Assembly (NCBI GenBank): GCA_964525635.1
Contig: CAZGJX010000020.1
Coordinates: 1 to 47,175, forward strand
Direction: 5' to 3'
DNA length: 47,175 nt
Source: an uncultured archaeon
Lineage (GTDB): Archaea; Asgardarchaeota; Lokiarchaeia; Sigyniarchaeales; SOKP01
Part shown: positions 3,018 to 28,873 of the stretch, one piece after another
Numbering within the stretch: the stretch's first letter is position 1
How the letters are laid out: each line of letters opens with the position of its first letter
Program-made: the position numbers and the translations under genes
Notes under the pieces: generated by a model
Seen by the model: only the letters and a program-made list of their open reading frames with translations
Told to the model about the DNA's origin: nothing
The model's database searches: none

Positions 3018-3241
3018 TTTGATATTTTTTTTTTAGTATTTCAAATCAAATCTAAAATATAAAAGAATTATTGATATTTATACTAATTCAATTAGAGTTC
3101 AGAAAATTATTGATGTTATTTATCAATAATCTATTTTCATTTTATAATTAATAACCTTAATATAGTTTTCCAGATAATTATAATAAATATATTTCTTTAA
3201 ATGATAAATTAATCATCATAAAAAATCTAAGTGTGATTTTT

Positions 3242-4543
3242 ATGGGTTTTCGCGAATATATAAAAAAGATAGAAGAAGAAGATATACTTCGAAAAGTAGA
3301 TATTGAAGTATCAAAACATTTAGAAATTTCGGGCATTCTAAAAGAACTGGAGCCTACTCCTGTAATTTTTAGTAAAATTAAAGATAATAATTATCGACTA
3401 ATAGGTAATCTATTTTGTACAAAACAATCAATTGCATCATATTTTAATGCTACTCCATCAGATTTAATACCAATGTTAACAAGCGCAATTGAAAATCATT
3501 CTGAACCTGAAGTTATAAATAATGCACCATGTCAAGAAATCGTACAATCCGAAGTTAATTTAGAAACACTACCAATACTATTTCATTGTGAAAAAGATGG
3601 AGGACCATATATTAGTTCTGCTGTTGTTGTAACACGAGATCCTGATTATGGCCAAAATTTAGATTTTCATAGAGCAATGCAATTTTCAAAAACTCAATTT
3701 GCAACTCGAATCGTTAGGGGTCGAGATTTTCATAAATTTTTAGAAAAAAATGGAGAGCTTGATGTTGCTTATTGTATAGGTAATACTCCAAATATTCTTA
3801 TAGCAGCAGCAACATCAGTGGATACTGGTATTAATGAGTTGCGTATTGCTAACGCACTTGAACCTATTCAAGTAACAAAAGCTAATTCAGTTGATTTATT
3901 AATACCAGCAGATAGCGAATTTGTGATAGAAGGTCGTGTATATTTAGAGGAAAAACATGCAGAAGGTCCTTTTGTTGATCTAACTGAAACATACGATATG
4001 ATAAGAGAAGAACCTATATTTGAGGTCAAGAAGATAACACATAAAAAGGATGCGATTTGGCAAGCTCTTCTTCCAGGTGCACTCGAACATAAAATATTAA
4101 TGGGTATGCCTCGAGAACCGACTATATTTAAAAAGGTAAATGAAAAAGATGTCAAATGTTTAGATGTAAATATAAATCCTGGAGGATGTTCATGGCTCCA
4201 TGCAATTGTTCAAATTGATAAGAGAAGCGATTCAGATGGTAAAAAGGCCATAGAAGGAGCTTTTGAAGGTCATAGAAGCTGTAAACATGTTTTCATTGTT
4301 GATAAAGATATAGATATTTATGATCCTCTTTCGGTAGAATGGGCAATGGCAACACGGTTTCAAGGGGATATCAATATGATAGTTAAGGATAAAGAACCTG
4401 GAAGCAGTTTAGATCCAAGTGCTGAACCAGGTACAAAATTAACAACAAAAATAGGATTTGATTTGACTGCGCCATTAGTTGTTAAAGGTAAAAGTTTTAG
4501 AAAAGCAGAGTTTCCAAAAGTGGATATAAATAAATATTTTTAA
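3242..4543 (+). CDS. UbiD-family decarboxylase, likely trans-anhydromevalonate 5-phosphate decarboxylase (AMPD)
   Basis: DGGPYI, EGPFVD, VDKDIDIYD..VEWAMATR and SSLDPS UbiD motifs; adjacent to PMDh subunits; SD-like GTGTGA before ATG 3242. Confidence 0.88.
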   Translation: MGFREYIKKIEEEDILRKVDIEVSKHLEISGILKELEPTPVIFSKIKDNNYRLIGNLFCTKQSIASYFNATPSDLIPMLTSAIENHSEPEVINNAPCQEIVQSEVNLETLPILFHCEKDGGPYISSAVVVTRDPDYGQNLDFHRAMQFSKTQFATRIVRGRDFHKFLEKNGELDVAYCIGNTPNILIAAATSVDTGINELRIANALEPIQVTKANSVDLLIPADSEFVIEGRVYLEEKHAEGPFVDLTETYDMIREEPIFEVKKITHKKDAIWQALLPGALEHKILMGMPREPTIFKKVNEKDVKCLDVNINPGGCSWLHAIVQIDKRSDSDGKKAIEGAFEGHRSCKHVFIVDKDIDIYDPLSVEWAMATRFQGDINMIVKDKEPGSSLDPSAEPGTKLTTKIGFDLTAPLVVKGKSFRKAEFPKVDINKYF

Positions 4544-4561
4544 TATAAAGGAGTTGATTAT

Positions 4562-5755
4562 ATGGACTTAACATCTGAAGAAAAAGATATGTTGGATGGT
4601 AAATATGGAAAAGCAACACAAAAATCTATGGAAATTTTAGCTACATTAGGAGATATTTATGAAGCAAAACGAATGATTGATGTTGAAAGTGTACAAATTT
4701 CAGGTGTATCATATGCAAACCTCAATGAAGCAGGATTAGATTTTCTTAGTGAAATGGCAATAGATGGTAAGACAAGAGTTCTTACTACATTAAATCCAGC
4801 TGGTATGGATCGTGATAATTGGCAAGCATTAGGAATTGAAGAAAGCTTTGCTATCAATCAAAATAGGGTTATAGATGCTTTTGCTAAAATGGAGGTAATT
4901 ACCACTTGTACATGTACACCTTATTTAATTGGCAACCTTCCTCATTACGGTCAACATGTCGCATGGGCAGAAAGTAGTGCTGTTTGTTTTTGTAATTCTG
5001 TTATTGGCGCTTTAACTAACCGTGAGGGAGGTCCAAGTGCTTTAGCTTCCGCATTAACTGGAAAAACACCAGAATATGGTTATCATTTAGAAGAAAACAG
5101 ACATGGTGAAGCTTTATTTGAAATAAAAGCAAAAATAAATGGAACTGATCAATTTGGAGTTCTTGGTAAAATAATTGGTGATAAATTAGGTGAACTTAAG
5201 AAAAAAATACCTTATATCACTGGAATTCCATCTGCAACTGTAGAAGAATTAAAATCATTCTGTGCCTCAGTGGCAACTTATGGAGGGACAGCTTTATTTC
5301 ATATGGAAGGGATAACGCCTGAATCACTAAAATATCCGAAACCGACTGACCCAAAAATAGAAATTAATGAAAAAAATATAGAAAAAACTCGAGCTGAATT
5401 AATTGATGAAGATATTGAAGTTGATTTTGTGAGTATAGGATGTCCTCATGCCTCTATTGCCGAAATAGCAAAAGTAGCTAAATTATTAGAAGGAAAAAAA
5501 GTTACTAAGGAGTTTTGGATTACAACTGGTCGCCCTACAAAGAAAATAGCGGATGAGGCGGGTTATACCAAAATTATTGAAGAAGCGGGCGCTAAATTTG
5601 CTGCAGATACTTGTTGTGTTGTAGCACCAATAAAAGGTAGATTCAAAGGAATTGTAGTAGATTCTGCAAAAGCATGCTATTATGGTAGAGCTAAAAATAA
5701 ATTTAAAGTAAAGATAGCTTCAATCGAAGATTGTGTTAAGGAGGCGATAATATAA
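4562..5755 (+). CDS. Phosphomevalonate dehydratase large subunit (aconitase X catalytic subunit)
   Basis: CTCTPY, WAESSA, NREGGPSAL, GCPHAS and DTCCVV AcnX motifs; operon context. Confidence 0.9.
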   Translation: MDLTSEEKDMLDGKYGKATQKSMEILATLGDIYEAKRMIDVESVQISGVSYANLNEAGLDFLSEMAIDGKTRVLTTLNPAGMDRDNWQALGIEESFAINQNRVIDAFAKMEVITTCTCTPYLIGNLPHYGQHVAWAESSAVCFCNSVIGALTNREGGPSALASALTGKTPEYGYHLEENRHGEALFEIKAKINGTDQFGVLGKIIGDKLGELKKKIPYITGIPSATVEELKSFCASVATYGGTALFHMEGITPESLKYPKPTDPKIEINEKNIEKTRAELIDEDIEVDFVSIGCPHASIAEIAKVAKLLEGKKVTKEFWITTGRPTKKIADEAGYTKIIEEAGAKFAADTCCVVAPIKGRFKGIVVDSAKACYYGRAKNKFKVKIASIEDCVKEAII

Positions 5756-5756
5756 A

Positions 5757-6149
5757 ATGAAATTAGAAGGAAGAAAAATCTATAAAGGAATTACCAGTGG
5801 TGAAGCTATTGTTACCTCTCAAGGAATTTCTTTCTTTGGAGGTGTTGATCCTATAACTGGAGAAGTCACAGAAAAAGGTCATGAATTAGAAGGTAAATCT
5901 GTCTCTGGGAAGGTCTTGGTTTTTTCCACAGGTAAAGGATCAACCGTTGGATCTTATACTATGTATCAAATGAAAAAAGGAAATAAGGCTCCAGTAGCTA
6001 TAATAAATGAAACTATTGATACTATTATAGCTGTGGGTTGCATAATTAGTGAAATTCCATGTGTAGATAAAATAGATATTAGTCTAATCAAAACAGGACA
6101 AAAAATTACTGTAAATGGAACAGAAGGAACAATTGAAATTGAAGAATAG
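5757..6149 (+). CDS. Phosphomevalonate dehydratase small subunit (AcnX swivel, DUF126)
   Basis: SFFGGVDP..G and GKGSTVGSY motifs. Confidence 0.9.
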   Translation: MKLEGRKIYKGITSGEAIVTSQGISFFGGVDPITGEVTEKGHELEGKSVSGKVLVFSTGKGSTVGSYTMYQMKKGNKAPVAIINETIDTIIAVGCIISEIPCVDKIDISLIKTGQKITVNGTEGTIEIEE

Positions 6150-6439: not shown

Positions 6440-8146
6440 ATGAAAAGAAATTATAATAAGCAAAAGGATCTTTTAGAATTCTGTCAATTAGTAATGAGAT
6501 CTGTATATAATAAATTAAATACTAAAAATAATTTTAATAAGAAAAGAATTTTAGATTTATTTTTATCTAATGAAACATCTGAGGATTTATTCAGAGATTC
6601 TGGGTTAATAGAGGAGATTAGGACAAGAATCCAAGCTAAAAGATGTTTGCAAGTAATTTCCTTGGCTTTAATTAATTCATTTAACTATATAAATCTGAAA
6701 AAAAATTTAATAATACTTACAAATTTATTATCATCAAGAGTTTTAGATATAATAAAGACATATATACCACTTTTAAATGAAATTGATCAAGATTTGGAGA
6801 TTTCAAAATGGTTACCCAGAAGAAATCTTCCAAAAAAAATATTGGTAAATAAAAAGGTAAAAAAATGTAATAAATGTCTAAATTTATTACCAATTGATAA
6901 ATTTGAAAGAAAACATGGGAAAAGAGGAGAAAATGAAGGTATATCAAGTCATTGTTCAATTTGTAAAGAATGCAGAATTGAAAAAAGATTAATCAATCTA
7001 CTAAAGAAAAAATTAAAACTTATTTTAGAGTTATTTGATGGTAAATGTTATGAATGTGGTGTAGGTCTAGAATATATTGCTTCATTTGAGTTTCATCATC
7101 ATAATCCTAAAATTAAAAAAAATAGCTGGAATAAAGTAAAATTTAGGAGCTATGATTTCATTAGAAATTGGGCAATAAAAGAAGAAGTTGTACCTTTATG
7201 TGGAAATTGTCATTCGATGAAAAAAGCTTCTATATTCAATGATTTTAAAAATATTATTACTTTAAAAAATATTTTTAGCAAAAATGCAGAAGAAATAGAT
7301 TATTTAGTAAAAAAAGCAATTAATGATCATCCTAATTATATTCATCTTAAAGATTATAAAAGAACAATAAAAATCCAAATCAAGAAATATTTAAAAAAAA
7401 GATATATTTATACAAAACTATTTAAAGGGCGTTGTATAGCTTGTGAAGAAATAGTGATTAACGATTTCCTTCCAGCATTAGAACTACATCATCGAAAACA
7501 CCAAAATAATGAAAAGAAGTCAACTTGGCGTGAAATATCTTATGAAAATTGTAAAAATATTTCTTTCATAATTAGAATGGAGAATTGTATATGTCTTTGT
7601 ACTAATTGTCATAAATTAGTGAGATCCAAATTAAATATTCATATAGATAATATACTGAGAGAACTTAGACTTCCAAGAGATTTAAGTATTAATATAATAA
7701 ATAGATATAAATCTTTAATGAAAAAAATAAATGATTTTTTAATTCCCTATGATATTGATAATCCTAAATCTTGTTTAGAATTAGATTTTTCTTATCCATA
7801 TGATATTTGGAAAATCAGACTATTTCAATTATATAATTATACAATAAACAAAAAATCCAATATTTTTAGCATTAATGAATTGACAGAAATATTTGGATTT
7901 ATAAGAAAAAAAGTTAAATATAACATAGATCGGTTTAAATCGTTTAATTATGTGAAAGAATTTGAATTAAATGATTTGAATAAAGATAATGGAACTAAAA
8001 TTCAAAAATATTATTATATTACGGAGTTAGGTTTATTGAAAGCTCGAGATATTGAGAAAAATCATCCTGATATTACTAAAGAATTGAAATTAAATCTTTT
8101 AAGTATTGAAAAATATATAAAAAAACAAAAAAAATGGATTTTATAG
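6440..8146 (+). CDS. Free-standing protein with Zn finger, two tandem HNH-like modules and a C-terminal winged-helix-like region (putative endonuclease)
   Basis: CNKC..CKEC; repeated FxGxCxxC...EFHH/ELHH...LCxNCH; C-terminal YYITELG. Confidence 0.65.
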   Translation: MKRNYNKQKDLLEFCQLVMRSVYNKLNTKNNFNKKRILDLFLSNETSEDLFRDSGLIEEIRTRIQAKRCLQVISLALINSFNYINLKKNLIILTNLLSSRVLDIIKTYIPLLNEIDQDLEISKWLPRRNLPKKILVNKKVKKCNKCLNLLPIDKFERKHGKRGENEGISSHCSICKECRIEKRLINLLKKKLKLILELFDGKCYECGVGLEYIASFEFHHHNPKIKKNSWNKVKFRSYDFIRNWAIKEEVVPLCGNCHSMKKASIFNDFKNIITLKNIFSKNAEEIDYLVKKAINDHPNYIHLKDYKRTIKIQIKKYLKKRYIYTKLFKGRCIACEEIVINDFLPALELHHRKHQNNEKKSTWREISYENCKNISFIIRMENCICLCTNCHKLVRSKLNIHIDNILRELRLPRDLSINIINRYKSLMKKINDFLIPYDIDNPKSCLELDFSYPYDIWKIRLFQLYNYTINKKSNIFSINELTEIFGFIRKKVKYNIDRFKSFNYVKEFELNDLNKDNGTKIQKYYYITELGLLKARDIEKNHPDITKELKLNLLSIEKYIKKQKKWIL

Positions 8147-8250
8147 ATTTTTTATTTAATCAATAGAAAAAAAAAGATTTTCTAAAAAAGATCAAACTTT
8201 TTAGAAATCATTTATTAAATCCATCAAAATATCATTAAATAGGAGTGACA

Positions 8251-9229
8251 ATGAGTAATAAGAAAGGTTTTGGAAAAGGTTATGGTAAGACTATACTTTT
8301 TGGCGAGATTTATTTCTAATTTCGGAAATAAACGCAATCATTTTGTAGTTTATGGTCTTCCTGCGATTGCTTCTGCTTTAGGATCTTACACAACTGCAGA
8401 AGTTAAAGTTATAGAGGGTCAAGGCTGGAAAGTGAACGATAATAGACCAGCAACTCCAGGATATAAAAAGCAAAAATTCAATGAAGCTCAGCAATCAATT
8501 AAAAATGTTATAGAATTTCTAAATATAGCCACAGATAATCAACAATTAGAGTTAACTTTTGCTGGAGATCTCTATGCAGCAAGTGGAGTTGGAGCCTCAG
8601 CTGCCCAATGTACATCTTTAGCTCGTGCGATCAATGATGAATTCAGTCTTGGTTTAGATGATGAAAAAATAAATGAAGCTGCTTATGAAGGAGAAAAAGG
8701 GTATCATGGAACACCTTCAGGAATTGATAATACAGCATCCACTTATGGAGGTTTAATTTGGTTTGAGAAAAATCTCAGTGGTGGTAAAAATACAATTGAA
8801 AGACTTCAATCAAAAGAAAAAATGTACTTAGTCATAGGAAATACCGAGCTAACTGCTTCAACAACTGAAGTTGTAGGTGATGTGAAGAAATTAAAAGAGG
8901 AAAATCCAGAAAAGTTTGAAAATATATTCAATGCTTACAAAGATTTAGTTCGTAAAGCCAGGAATGCTTTAATTGATAGTGATGTTATTACGATTGGAAA
9001 ACTAATGAATGAAAATCATAAATTACTTCAAGAAATTACCGTTTCAGGAGAAGTTAATGATTTATTAGTTAAAATTGCACGGGATTGTGGCGCATTAGGT
9101 GCTAAAATGACAGGAACAGGTCGTGGCGGATTAGTGATTGCTTTAGCTCAAGATGAAACTATGCAAGAGAAGATATATAATGCGATCCAAGAAAAGGGTT
9201 ATATGGCTTGGAAAACTACAATTGGATAA
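8251..9229 (+). CDS. mvk: Mevalonate kinase interrupted by a 31-nt insert (join 8251..8307, 8339..9229; 315 aa)
   Basis: SD AGGAGTGA + ATG 8251 gives MSNKKGFGKGYGKTILFGE; after the insert HFVVYGLPAIA; GHMP motifs SGVGASAA, HGTPSGIDN and GAKMTGTGRGG. Confidence 0.9.
8308..8338 (+). other. Putative archaeal bulge-helix-bulge intron in mvk mRNA
   Basis: Contains in-frame TAA; internal 8-bp stem TTTATTTC/GAAATAAA; BHB cut sites coincide with the only 31-nt excision giving GEH. Confidence 0.75.
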
Positions 9230-9306: not shown

Positions 9307-11205
9307 GTGTTGAATATGACTAAAAAAATCTCTTTATTAAAATTAGGGGGAAGCTTGCTAACTGATAAAAATAAACCATTTTCATTGAGAGAAGAAGTTA
9401 TAAAAAATACGATAAAACAAATAGCAGATAGTCAGGAAAAACTTATTATAATTCATGGAGGAGGATCTTTTGGCCACCCAGTTGCCAAAAAATATAATAT
9501 TTCTAATGGTTTAAATAATTCAATAGAAAATCAAATTTTAGGTCTTACTCAGACACATGAAGCAATGAATAAACTAAATACATTTATTATCAATGAATTT
9601 ATAGAAATGAATGTTCCTGCATTATCAATACAAACCTCTGGTATTTTTATTAAAGAGAATCAGAAATTCATAATGAAATCTGCTGATATTATTGAAAAAA
9701 GTTTAGATCTTGGTGTAATACCAGTTTTATATGGTGATATAATATTGCATAAATCTGATACTTTTTCTATTATTTCAGGGGATCAAATTATTTTAGAATT
9801 ATGTAAAAATTTGAGGAATTACCAAATAAAAAAAGTTATATTTGCTACTGAAATAGATGGAATTTATATTTATGAGAATAATAATACTGAAAATATAAAA
9901 TTAGCTACAAATCTCAACTATAGTGATCTAGACACTATAAAATTAGCTAACTTGGGTCAGAAGATAGATGTAACAGGTGGTATGAAAGGAAAAATAGAAT
10001 CAATTAAAGAAATATGTGAACAAAACCTTCCTATACAAATTATTAATGGTTTAAAGAACAATTATATTCTAAAAGCTTTAAAATCAGAAGAAATTGAAGG
10101 AACCTATATCAATTATGACACAGTAAAAGGTAAGAGAATTAGTAAAAGAAAAATAGAGCATATTAAAATACCTATTAATTATAATGTTCAACATTATACT
10201 AATTATTTTGATGATATAGAATTATTATATCATGCCTTCCCACAGATTAATTTTGATGATATTGATCTTTCAACTGATTTTTTTGGTAAAACCATATCAG
10301 CACCTATTTGTATAGCTGCTATAACTGGAGGTCATCCTGTATCCTATAAAATAAATAGGATTTTAGCAGAGGCTGCAGAAAATCAGACTATTATTATGAG
10401 TGTAGGAAGTCAACGTGCAGGATTAGTTGATCCTGAATTAAAAGAATCTTTTAGTATTGTTAGGGATGTAGCTCCAAATATTCCTATTATTGGCAATTTA
10501 GGAATAGGTCAATTAAGTAAACCTGATTTTAATCCTGATGAATTTATTGAATGTATTAATATGATTAAAGCAGACGTCATGGCTATCCATTTTAATGCTT
10601 TACATGAATTATTTCAAGAAAAAGGGGATCGTTCATATAATAATCTAGTCGATAATTTTAAAATAATTAGAAAATCAACACAGATTCCAATCATTGCTAA
10701 AGAGGTCGGATCTGGATTTAATCAAGAAGTTGCATTTACACTTGATAAACTTGGTTTTGATGGTTTTGATGTTGGAGGAGCAGGGGGTACTAGTTTTGCT
10801 GCAATTGAATCCTTTCGTAATAAAAAACTAGATGAAACTTATACTAGGAATCCCGCAGATCTATTTCGAGATTGGGGTATCCCTACACCTATAAGTATAG
10901 ATTATGTAAGAAAAGCATCTGAAAAATTAATAATTGCAACTGGGGGATTGAGAAATGGAATAGATATTACTAAATCAATTGCTTTAGGTGCCAATATAGC
11001 AGGTTTTGCATATAAATTTCTTTTAACAGCTTGGAATGATTATAATAATAATACCATTTTAAATTCAATTAAAGAAATTAAAACACTAAAAAATGAGTTA
11101 CGTTCATGCCTTTGGTTAATGAATGCAATTAACATAAGTGAAATCTTTAGAAAAAGAGAAAAACTTATTCTTTTAGGAAAGTTATATAAATGGTTCAATC
11201 AATAA
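9307..11205 (+). CDS. fni: Fused isopentenyl phosphate kinase + type 2 isopentenyl-diphosphate isomerase (IPK-Fni)
   Basis: N-half KLGGSLLTDK, HGGGSFGH, DVTGGM; C-half RKIEHI, AITGG, VGSQR, KEVGSG, GAGGTSFAAIE, WGIPT. Confidence 0.9.
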   Translation: MLNMTKKISLLKLGGSLLTDKNKPFSLREEVIKNTIKQIADSQEKLIIIHGGGSFGHPVAKKYNISNGLNNSIENQILGLTQTHEAMNKLNTFIINEFIEMNVPALSIQTSGIFIKENQKFIMKSADIIEKSLDLGVIPVLYGDIILHKSDTFSIISGDQIILELCKNLRNYQIKKVIFATEIDGIYIYENNNTENIKLATNLNYSDLDTIKLANLGQKIDVTGGMKGKIESIKEICEQNLPIQIINGLKNNYILKALKSEEIEGTYINYDTVKGKRISKRKIEHIKIPINYNVQHYTNYFDDIELLYHAFPQINFDDIDLSTDFFGKTISAPICIAAITGGHPVSYKINRILAEAAENQTIIMSVGSQRAGLVDPELKESFSIVRDVAPNIPIIGNLGIGQLSKPDFNPDEFIECINMIKADVMAIHFNALHELFQEKGDRSYNNLVDNFKIIRKSTQIPIIAKEVGSGFNQEVAFTLDKLGFDGFDVGGAGGTSFAAIESFRNKKLDETYTRNPADLFRDWGIPTPISIDYVRKASEKLIIATGGLRNGIDITKSIALGANIAGFAYKFLLTAWNDYNNNTILNSIKEIKTLKNELRSCLWLMNAINISEIFRKREKLILLGKLYKWFNQ

Positions 11206-26883: not shown

Positions 26884-27804
26884 TTAAGGTTTGAAGAAAT
26901 CTATCAACCTCTTTTCTATATTATGCATTAATTCATCCAATTTCCTTTCATTAAAGCTTTCAGAAATACCAATAAGATATTCTAAGTTTGACTTGAGAAA
27001 ATTCAATCTCAATATTCTCACAATGCGTATTTTATTATCAGTTTTAAATATATGACTTTCATTATCTAAAAAAGATTCTATTCCAAATTTTTCTTTAAGA
27101 TGATTAAAGGTTTCGAAAGAATCACATATTAGATTAATATTATAATCATTAGATTTCGATTGTGTAATAATTTTATTTTGGTTATCAATAACTATAGTTA
27201 GAATATGTGAATATTTTTTAATTAAATCATCTAATAATTTTTTAATTTGATGGGTTATTTCTGAGAAACTACTGAGAATATCTGAAAATGTATTGTGTAC
27301 GCTGTAGATTAAATCTTCATATATACTTGTATAATAGACATATAATTCAATAGGCAAATCGAATAAATTTTGAATCTGGTGTGGCATAAGTCTAATATTA
27401 TTTTGAATTAGTTTGGGAATTCTATCTATTTTATGATAAATTAAAATTAAACGTGCTTTTTTACAGATACTTCTCATTTTTTTATACACAATTTGTACTT
27501 CTTGAATTATTTTCTGCGTATTTTCTTTAAGGATTTCAAAATCAAATATATATAAAACAATATCTACATTTTCAAATGCTTTTAACAGAGTTTCATCCTT
27601 TAAAGGAGGATCATTCTCCTTGTTTGGAAGATCTAATATAGTTAATTCAATATTTAACCAATCATATTCATTTGATTCAACACCTTTTGTGGATTCCAAT
27701 GGTTCTTTAAATAAAGTATTAGGATTTAAGTTTTCAAAAATAATCCTTTTTAAACTTGTCTTACCCACACCAATCCTTCCAACAAAAAGAATTTTATGTT
27801 CTAT
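26884..27804 (-). CDS. Rag/Gtr-like small GTPase with C-terminal roadblock-like domain, degenerate G3 (start extended to ATA 27804)
   Basis: Upstream in-frame KILFVGRIGVGKTS completes the P-loop; DLPN at G3; HKID G4; YTSI G5. Confidence 0.7.
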   Translation of the reverse strand: MEHKILFVGRIGVGKTSLKRIIFENLNPNTLFKEPLESTKGVESNEYDWLNIELTILDLPNKENDPPLKDETLLKAFENVDIVLYIFDFEILKENTQKIIQEVQIVYKKMRSICKKARLILIYHKIDRIPKLIQNNIRLMPHQIQNLFDLPIELYVYYTSIYEDLIYSVHNTFSDILSSFSEITHQIKKLLDDLIKKYSHILTIVIDNQNKIITQSKSNDYNINLICDSFETFNHLKEKFGIESFLDNESHIFKTDNKIRIVRILRLNFLKSNLEYLIGISESFNERKLDELMHNIEKRLIDFFKP

Positions 27805-27949
27805 GTTTTATCAACTATTTATAAAAATAAATTCAAATTAAATTGAATAATTTAATATATAATTATACTCTCTATTAAAACTCTTCATACAAATTTCTTG
27901 TATATAATCAGATATTATCTTTGAAAATAAATATGATAGATTCTCTATA

Positions 27950-28873
27950 TTATTTAAAATAGCTAATTAAGTTTGATTTTATTCTATGAATTACTTTATC
28001 CAAGTTTATTTCATTAAAATTGTCAGAAATACCAATTAGATATTGTAAATTTGATTTAAGAAATTTAAGTTTCGCTATTTTAACCACAAATATTTTATCA
28101 TTTGAATTAAATAGATGACTTTCCATATCTGAATATTCTTCTAACTTATTTTGTTCCCATAGATTGTAAAATATAATAAAAGAATCATAAATAAGATTTA
28201 TATTAAAGCTCTGAGTTTTTGATTGTGTAATTACTTTATTCTGGTCATCAGTTATCAAACAGAGAACATTAGATTCATTTTGTATGGAATCATCCAAAAT
28301 CTTTTTTATAGAATGAGTATTGCTTGAAAAGCTACTAAGTAATTCTGAAAAAGTGTTATGAACACTATATATAAAATCCTCTTTTATACTCGTAAAATAA
28401 ATATTTGGTTTTATAGGAAGGTTGATGAGAAATTGAACTTGATTTGTTAAAATTCGGAGATTATTTTGAAGTAATTTAGGTATTAGATCAATTTTATGAT
28501 ATATTAAAATTAATTTTGCTTTATTATTTATTTTTTTCATAATTTTATATATTTTTTGTATTTCTTCTATTATTTCTTGGGAATTTTTCATTAGAATAGT
28601 ATAATCAAACATATATATGATAAGATCCGCTTTTTCAAAAGCATTTAATTGATTTTCACCTTCCTTAAAAAGATTTTGAATTTCTTGTCCAGACGTATCA
28701 AATATACTTAGTTTTACATCTAACCATGTATATTCAGTTGTCTCAATTCCGCGGGTTGGTTCCAAAGAATCTTGAATTAGAGTACTTGGTTTAGAATTTT
28801 CAAATATAATTTTTTTTAAGGATGTTTTTCCCACTCCTGCTCTTCCAATAAAAAGTATTTTATTTATAATTAT
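27950..28873 (-). CDS. Rag/Gtr-like small GTPase with C-terminal roadblock-like domain (start at ATA/ATT 28867-28873)
   Basis: KILFIGRAGVGKTS, LEPT, DTSGQ, HKID, FTSI. Confidence 0.8.
   Translation of the reverse strand: MIINKILFIGRAGVGKTSLKKIIFENSKPSTLIQDSLEPTRGIETTEYTWLDVKLSIFDTSGQEIQNLFKEGENQLNAFEKADLIIYMFDYTILMKNSQEIIEEIQKIYKIMKKINNKAKLILIYHKIDLIPKLLQNNLRILTNQVQFLINLPIKPNIYFTSIKEDFIYSVHNTFSELLSSFSSNTHSIKKILDDSIQNESNVLCLITDDQNKVITQSKTQSFNINLIYDSFIIFYNLWEQNKLEEYSDMESHLFNSNDKIFVVKIAKLKFLKSNLQYLIGISDNFNEINLDKVIHRIKSNLISYFK

What the first reader, a model, noticed from the sequence alone, without database searches (positions are those of the whole stretch)
8251..8351. 31-nt bulge-helix-bulge intron inside the mevalonate kinase mRNA
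Seen: ATG 8251 (SD AGGAGTGA) gives ...GKTILFGE, then ATT TAT TTC TAA; the motif resumes in another frame at 8339 with HFVVYG. Removing exactly 8308..8338 restores frame and the MVK motif GKxILFGEHxVVYG, whereas 31-nt excisions shifted by 1-3 nt put D or N into the motif. The RNA folds as follows: inner stem UUUAUUUC(8309-16)/GAAAUAAA(8325-32); 5' bulge AGA(8306-08); central helix GGCG/CGCA (3 G-C pairs + G.A); 3' bulge AUC(8337-39); exon-exon stem AGACUAUA(8288-95)/UGUAGUUU(8344-51). Established: archaeal splicing endonuclease cuts after the second nucleotide of each 3-nt bulge, which here means after 8307 and 8338, exactly the predicted junctions. BHB introns in mRNA are well known mainly from crenarchaeal cbf5. 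Inference: a core lipid-pathway gene in an Asgard archaeon needs tRNA-type splicing, which may be regulatory.
Basis: partly seen in the sequence, partly recalled or inferred. Interest (0 to 1): 0.9.

Follow-up and report, generated by a model that had tools for sequence, protein, structure and literature searches.

The report
tRNA-type mini-intron in Asgard mevalonate kinase
The only mevalonate kinase gene of this Asgard archaeon is broken in its active-site motif by a 31-base insert shaped like a tRNA intron and kept in 54 of 91 related copies, so its mRNA very probably has to be cut and rejoined, something the papers I could search confirm for the coding part of only one archaeal gene (cbf5).

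Summary
Confirmed, with one correction. Insert 8308-8338 splits motif 1 (GE|H) of the single mvk of a Promethearchaeota genome. It lies at the same site in 54 of 91 family orthologues (28-31 nt); 37 lack it cleanly. Genes carrying it are under purifying selection (dN/dS 0.13). Both junctions fall after base 2 of 3-nt bulges around a central helix. An exon-intron pair of that helix changes C-G to U-A in at least 3 lineages. The motif is relaxed, not canonical. The genome encodes a two-subunit EndA with the broad-specificity loop, and RtcB. A single frameshift is impossible in 20 of 54 genes; assembly error and pseudogene are rejected. Added here: in one genus, intron state switched through a ~0.8-kb DNA tract exchange; five other G000 genes show similar inserts. 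No spliced RNA was available, and regulation is unsupported. This scan already reported the same mvk intron on other genomes.

The parts
8241..8248 (+). Shine-Dalgarno-like AGGAGTGA, 2 nt before the ATG
   Evidence: sequence
8251..8307 (+). mvk exon 1 (19 codons; holds the catalytic Lys and the Glu of motif 1)
   Evidence: last 11 codons pN/pS 0.066 across insert-bearing genes
8308..8338 (+). 31-nt intron; stop TAA at 8317-8319 in the exon-1 frame
   Evidence: 54 of 91 orthologues; a frame-0 stop inside the insert in 54 of 54
8339..9229 (+). mvk exon 2 (296 codons, starts at the substrate-binding His)
   Evidence: TIGR00549 215 bits, over the cut-off, profile positions 11-276; dN/dS 0.13
8302..8305 (+). 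central helix H, exon strand
   Evidence: pairs 2-4 formed in 54 of 54; pair 1 is G.A 33, G-U 20, G-C 1
8333..8336 (+). central helix H, intron strand
   Evidence: C-G to U-A double change in 4 genomes, one clade rejected (p-AU 0.0003)
8306..8308 (+). 5' bulge; predicted cut after 8307
   Evidence: matches the junction fixed by 37 insert-free orthologues
8337..8339 (+). 3' bulge or loop; predicted cut after 8338; first base A in 54 of 54
8309..8332 (+). intron hairpin h' (8309-8317 with 8324-8332, 6-nt loop)
   Evidence: 82% of cells paired, 5 of 9 pairs with double changes; pair probability about 0.87 here
8287..8295 (+). distal exon-exon helix, 5' strand
   Evidence: pair probability about 1.0; goes with the insert in about 10 of 11 independent pairs
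8351..8359 (+). distal exon-exon helix, 3' strand
8301..8301 (+). single outer pair U8301-A8340
   Evidence: 54 of 54 with insert vs 15 of 37 without
3233..6149 (+). context: UbiD-family decarboxylase and AcnX large and small subunits (archaeal modified mevalonate route)
9307..11205 (+). context: isopentenyl phosphate kinase fused to type 2 IPP isomerase
6440..8146 (+). context: HNH-like ORF, at this place only in this genome; not part of the intron

Best explanation
8308-8338 is a small intron in the mvk mRNA, removed by the tRNA-splicing machinery. SHOWN: the gene is single-copy, broken, and conserved in broken form; a precise 28-31-nt removal is the only single operation that restores it in all 54 genes; the RNA pairings around the junctions are under selection. 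INFERRED: a strong exon-exon helix (8287-95/8351-59) brings the junction regions together; the intron hairpin and the 3-4-bp central helix form a relaxed bulge-helix-bulge/loop; the two-subunit EndA, which has the Crenarchaea-type specificity loop, cuts after 8307 and 8338; RtcB joins the exons, giving a 315-aa kinase. Unspliced RNA gives a 22-residue peptide. The intron looks like a tolerated passenger, inherited vertically within clades and swapped at least sometimes with a long DNA tract by recombination.
For: Same site in 54 of 91 orthologues, lengths 31/30/28, clean GE|H in 37. Central pairs 2-4 formed in 54 of 54; the Gly codon is confined to GGC/GGT although GGA is the commonest Gly codon in exon 2; compensatory exon-intron change in at least 3 lineages. 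Covariation above 500 of 500 shuffles and above slid controls. dN/dS 0.129 vs 0.122 in insert-free genes; catalytic motifs intact in 52-53 of 53. No second mvk: the other hit is HddA-like. EndA alpha keeps the Aeropyrum triad Y/H/K, R157, W183 and loop K44 (PMC3241643); a second EndA paralogue and RtcB are present. Five other G000 genes are restored by the same cut rule.
Against: No spliced read or circular intron seen. The central helix is thermodynamically marginal: pair probability about 0.3, the drawn fold is 3.9 kcal/mol above the minimum, and RNAalifold did not recover it. The strict motif is not met. The distal helix is conserved but has no double changes, and part of its link to the insert may be shared tract ancestry. 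Related sequences inflate the shuffle test.
Confidence: 0.88

Rival explanations
1. Ribosomal recoding: a +1 frameshift, or a translational hop over the hairpin, makes MVK without splicing.
For: 31 = 3n+1; in this genome the exon-2 frame is open through the insert; a hairpin with an early stop recalls known bypass sites (own knowledge).
Against: In 20 of 54 genes an exon-2-frame stop lies at or after the frame-0 stop, so no single slip works; inserts of 30 nt with in-frame stops exist. The codon before His varies (AAT, TAT, AAA, TAA, TAG) and does not match the take-off Glu codon. Pairing between exon and the far end of the insert has the EndA geometry.
Confidence: 0.04
2. The insert is removed by another route (another nuclease/ligase, or excision at the DNA level), and the BHB shape is incidental.
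For: The motif is relaxed and weakly stable; cleavage by Asgard EndA has not been shown even for tRNA introns (bioRxiv 10.64898/2026.10.13.758758).
Against: Six G000 sites obey the cut-after-base-2 rule. The DNA contigs laid show no joint. No Rfam family matches, and 31 nt is too short for self-splicing.
Confidence: 0.04
3. A read-through protein from ATG 8282 (315 aa, as databases call it) is the real product.
For: Open in 22 of 54 genes; 24 of the top 120 database proteins are called this way.
Against: It lacks the catalytic Lys and the Glu of motif 1 (PMC1851959). The frame is stopped inside the insert in 22 of 54. pN/pS is 1.12 in that frame vs 0.066 in the exon-1 frame.
Confidence: 0.02
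4. Assembly error or decaying pseudogene.
For: The reading frame is broken in a metagenome-assembled genome.
Against: Identical in further DNA runs; 56 genomes of 5 genera; purifying selection; sole mvk in an intact pathway cluster.
Confidence: 0.01
5. Add-on to the best explanation: splicing is a regulatory gate on isoprenoid synthesis.
For: The intron sits 19 codons in with an early stop; a regulatory role was proposed for the cbf5 intron (PMC2738675).
Against: 37 of 91 orthologues lack it, with 11-18 changes of state; similar inserts occur in unrelated genes; nothing condition-specific was found.
Confidence: 0.15

Closest known systems
cbf5 pre-mRNA intron of Desulfurococcales and Sulfolobales (Watanabe 2002; Yokobori 2009, PMC2738675)
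   Same: Short (16-44 nt) intron in a coding sequence at a catalytic motif; unconventional BHB; cuts between bulge bases 2 and 3; hetero-oligomeric EndA; patchy loss; mis-annotated in databases.
   Different: Another gene and phylum; splicing shown by cDNA for cbf5, not here; here it is one of several such genes in one genome; far more changes of state, at least one by DNA tract exchange.
Haloferax volcanii HVO_1309 5' UTR intron (Schwarz 2020, PMC7714728)
   Same: mRNA substrate of the tRNA splicing endonuclease.
   Different: Lies in the UTR and does not break a reading frame.
Non-canonical tRNA introns of Asgard archaea (bioRxiv 10.64898/2026.10.13.758758)
   Same: Same archaeal group, same motif, repeated gains, two-subunit EndA.
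   Different: tRNA genes only; the text does not mention mRNA or cbf5.
Mevalonate kinase, TIGR00549; nearest structure Leishmania major MK 2HFS
   Same: Motif 1 with the catalytic Lys, Glu and His.
   Different: The intron splits the Glu and His codons.

Membership tests
Archaeal EndA-type intron, relaxed motif (cbf5 type) | Both junctions lie after the second base of 3-nt bulges on opposite strands of a central helix | tested here: met
   Junction fixed by 37 insert-free orthologues equals the structural prediction
Archaeal EndA-type intron, relaxed motif (cbf5 type) | Exon-intron central helix and intron-side helix kept by selection | tested here: met
   Pairs 2-4 in 54 of 54; double changes in H and h'
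Archaeal EndA-type intron, relaxed motif (cbf5 type) | Host has a broad-specificity splicing endonuclease and a ligase | tested here: met
   Two EndA paralogues, alpha with triad and loop Lys; RtcB. By sequence only.
Archaeal EndA-type intron, relaxed motif (cbf5 type) | Removal restores a protein under selection | tested here: met
Archaeal EndA-type intron, relaxed motif (cbf5 type) | Spliced mRNA or excised circular intron exists in the cell | not testable with these tools
   No RNA holder listed; indirect searches found nothing
Archaeal EndA-type intron, relaxed motif (cbf5 type) | Cleavage by EndA in vitro | not testable with these tools
   bench experiment
Strict canonical hBHBh' motif | Four paired bases in H and an exon-exon helix directly outside the 3' bulge | tested here: not met
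   First pair G.A in 33 of 54; only one outer pair, then an internal loop
Programmed +1 frameshift or translational bypass | A slip window open in both frames, or matched take-off and landing codons | tested here: not met
   Impossible in 20 of 54 genes; codons do not match
Group I / group II intron | Catalytic RNA core of hundreds of bases | tested here: not met
   28-31 nt; no Rfam match
Mevalonate kinase TIGR00549 | Score above the curated cut-off | tested here: met
   215 vs 163 bits

The most novel reading that the evidence does not exclude
This is one member of a population of EndA-spliced micro-introns in essential protein genes of a Promethearchaeota family (here mvk, aIF2-gamma, RNase HII, an E1-like gene, AMP phosphorylase, an LsrF-like aldolase), so routine multi-gene mRNA splicing without a spliceosome exists in close relatives of eukaryotes, with introns moving between lineages inside recombined DNA tracts.
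Probability: 0.7. Interest if true: 0.9.

Novelty: new variant of a known kind. Interest (0 to 1): 0.77.

Why it matters
Published archaeal mRNA splicing rests on cbf5 and one UTR. An intron in a core lipid-precursor enzyme, conserved in dozens of Asgard species and accompanied by others in the same genome, would make tRNA-type splicing a general step of gene expression in this lineage. It bears on how intron-containing mRNAs could be tolerated before a nucleus and spliceosome existed, since translation starts 19 codons before the intron. It also means Asgard proteomes are mis-annotated (24 of 120 top database proteins carry a wrong N-terminus). The 79-nt substrate is directly testable with host EndA.

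Tried and rejected
RNA evidence: no RNA holder listed, which says nothing on expression. Two metagenome scans for a joined junction with the flank signature of insert-bearing genes found 0. Six short Logan contigs with intact mvk were ordinary insert-free alleles. RNAalifold gave no useful consensus. A loose genome-wide BHB scan was not enriched (148 loci vs 112-142 in controls; one search timed out); only the tight scan was (9 vs 1-5), and its rules were set after seeing mvk. Two of its nine hits look false (C48: separate glutamate synthase genes; C63, not checked) and C23 is unresolved. The upstream HNH-like ORF as the intron's homing partner: it sits at this place only in G000, among 40 loci, and its family is scattered over other loci in 52 relatives, so a link is not supported. 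Precise loss through cDNA: group II-type reverse transcriptases exist, but only 1 of 37 insert-free alleles keeps 8 or more distal pairs and the closest discordant pairs differ by about 24% in the flanks. Eight literature searches found no report of mRNA introns in Asgard archaea; most subscription papers are not covered.

Full report
OBSERVATION. The window reads SD 8241-8248, ATG 8251, 19 codons ending GKTILFGE, then I-Y-F-stop; the motif resumes at 8339 as HFVVYG in another frame. Of nine possible 31-nt excisions only 8308-8338 gives GE-H. Exon 2 scores 215 bits on TIGR00549 from profile position 11. It is the only mvk of the genome; the second hit is an HddA-like kinase below the cut-off. 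It sits in the archaeal mevalonate cluster, between UbiD/AcnX genes and an IPK-IDI2 fusion. Contigs of two further DNA runs span the insert without a difference. Named relatives are Promethearchaeota/Lokiarchaeota.

DISTRIBUTION. Of 91 family orthologues, 54 carry an insert at the same junction (50 of 31 nt, 3 of 30, 1 of 28) and 37 read straight through; 16 more distant homologues lack it. A pattern search found it in 56 of 161 genomes of the class, all in one family, in 5 genera; the pattern may miss divergent genes. All 54 inserts hold a stop in the exon-1 frame. Genes with the insert are as constrained as those without (exon 2 dN/dS 0.129 vs 0.122; exon 1 pN/pS 0.066), and their catalytic motifs are intact. 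Exon 1 carries the Lys and Glu equivalent to Lys18 and Glu24 of Leishmania MK, and exon 2 begins with the His25 equivalent (PMC1851959). So the exons must be joined for a working enzyme.

STRUCTURE. The central helix 8302-05/8333-36 has pairs 2-4 formed in 54 of 54 genes; pair 1 is G.A (33), G-U (20) or G-C (1). The exon Gly codon is GGC or GGT in all 54, although GGA is the commonest Gly codon in exon 2 and 21 of 37 insert-free genes use GGA/GGG. Four genomes with GGT have the matching intron change (C-G to U-A), and these are not one clade (p-AU 0.0003 on three of them). The intron hairpin shows double changes in 5 of 9 pairs. Overall 87.5% of cells pair vs about 40% in slid registers, and no shuffle of 500 reached the covariation score (kinship inflates this test). 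The first base of the 3' bulge is A in all 54. Outside it there is one invariant U-A pair, then a loop, then a 9-bp exon-exon helix 8287-95/8351-59 with pair probability near 1. The motif is therefore relaxed (bulge-helix-loop-like). Its core is weak on its own (probability about 0.3; not found by RNAalifold), so enzyme binding must help to form it (inference).

MACHINERY. The genome has two EndA paralogues and RtcB. The alpha subunit matches Aeropyrum EndA best and keeps the catalytic Tyr/His/Lys, the Arg/Trp recognition pair and the loop Lys44 that allows cleavage of relaxed motifs (PMC3241643). Two-subunit EndA is common in Asgard archaea. cbf5 introns also use unconventional motifs and such an enzyme.

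RIVALS. A single frameshift is impossible in 20 of 54 genes, and take-off and landing codons do not match. The read-through ORF from 8282 lacks the catalytic Lys, is stopped in 22 of 54 genes and evolves neutrally (pN/pS 1.12); yet 24 of 120 top database proteins are called that way. Pseudogene and assembly error fail on selection and recurrence. Regulation is unsupported.

EVOLUTION. The exon-2 tree needs 11-18 changes of state. Insert distance follows gene distance (rho 0.40), so inheritance is partly vertical. In genus g8 the insert-bearing L008 is 2-5% from three insert-free sisters over most of the gene but 13-32% from them over about 0.8 kb around the site, while those sisters are 0-4% apart there. 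The state thus switched by exchange of a DNA tract. Distances lean towards replacement by a foreign intron-free tract, but the direction is unsure and a chimeric assembly is not excluded. Insert-free alleles share odd flank codons (TTC in 22 of 37 vs about 17% expected), which fits tract exchange better than precise loss via cDNA. The HNH-like ORF upstream is at this place only in G000 and is not linked.

NOT ALONE. A tight scan for the same geometry plus reading-frame repair gave 9 loci in G000 against 1-5 for wrong geometries (rules set after seeing mvk; a loose scan was not enriched). Five besides mvk restore known motifs: aIF2-gamma, RNase HII, an E1-like gene, an LsrF-like aldolase and AMP phosphorylase, whose two parts match profile positions 1-165 and 167-500. 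The aIF2-gamma and aldolase inserts recur in same-genus genomes.

KNOWN AND NEW. It works like the cbf5 intron and meets every sequence-testable feature of that relaxed kind; it fails the strict canonical motif. The papers I could search give cbf5 and a Haloferax UTR as the archaeal mRNA cases and nothing for Asgard mRNA. This scan has noted the same mvk intron on other genomes; I count those notes as leads only. No RNA data were reachable, so splicing remains inferred. Verdict: very probably a real EndA-spliced mRNA intron (0.88); new variant of a known kind; interest 0.77.

Noticed in passing
window 6440-8146 (+): 568-aa ORF with two CxxC..HH..CxNCH modules inserted between the AcnX small subunit and mvk only in this genome; features resemble viral HNH proteins; homologues at other loci in 52 of 134 family genomes.
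   Followed up: partly
L201:1167-1196 (G000 C109:3066-3095, -): 30-nt BHB-shaped insert in AMP phosphorylase; the two parts match TIGR03327 positions 1-165 and 167-500.
   Followed up: partly
L199:329-358 (G000 C3:4428-4457, +): 30-nt insert with a stop in an LsrF-like aldolase after the DHG motif, self-complementary CATG central helix, present in G001 and G002; the G002 match has further stops.
   Followed up: partly
L196:1368-1396, L197:865-894, L198:268-297: 29-30-nt BHB-shaped inserts in aIF2-gamma (P-loop), RNase HII and an E1-like gene of the same genome.
   Followed up: partly
L008 vs L007, L040, L068: About 0.8-kb recombination tract around the intron site; L011/L045 also look mosaic.
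   Followed up: partly
window 8251-9229: This mvk clade is much closer to Leishmania MK (2HFS, E 2e-74) than to archaeal MK structures (E about 1e-27); other genera of the family have a more distant mvk of about 30-35% identity.
   Followed up: no
L218-L221 (G000 C58, C73, C36): Four reverse transcriptase ORFs of about 490 aa, two in tandem; the one tested matches group II RT/maturase below the cut-off.
   Followed up: no
L006, L008, L011, L012 start codon: mvk seems to start at ACG or TTG in place of ATG in several relatives.
   Followed up: no
whole genome: ARAGORN finds a large cluster of about 22 mostly intron-free tRNAs on one contig; many other tRNAs carry introns.
   Followed up: no
window 26884-28834 (-): Two tandem small-GTPase-like paralogues.
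   Followed up: no
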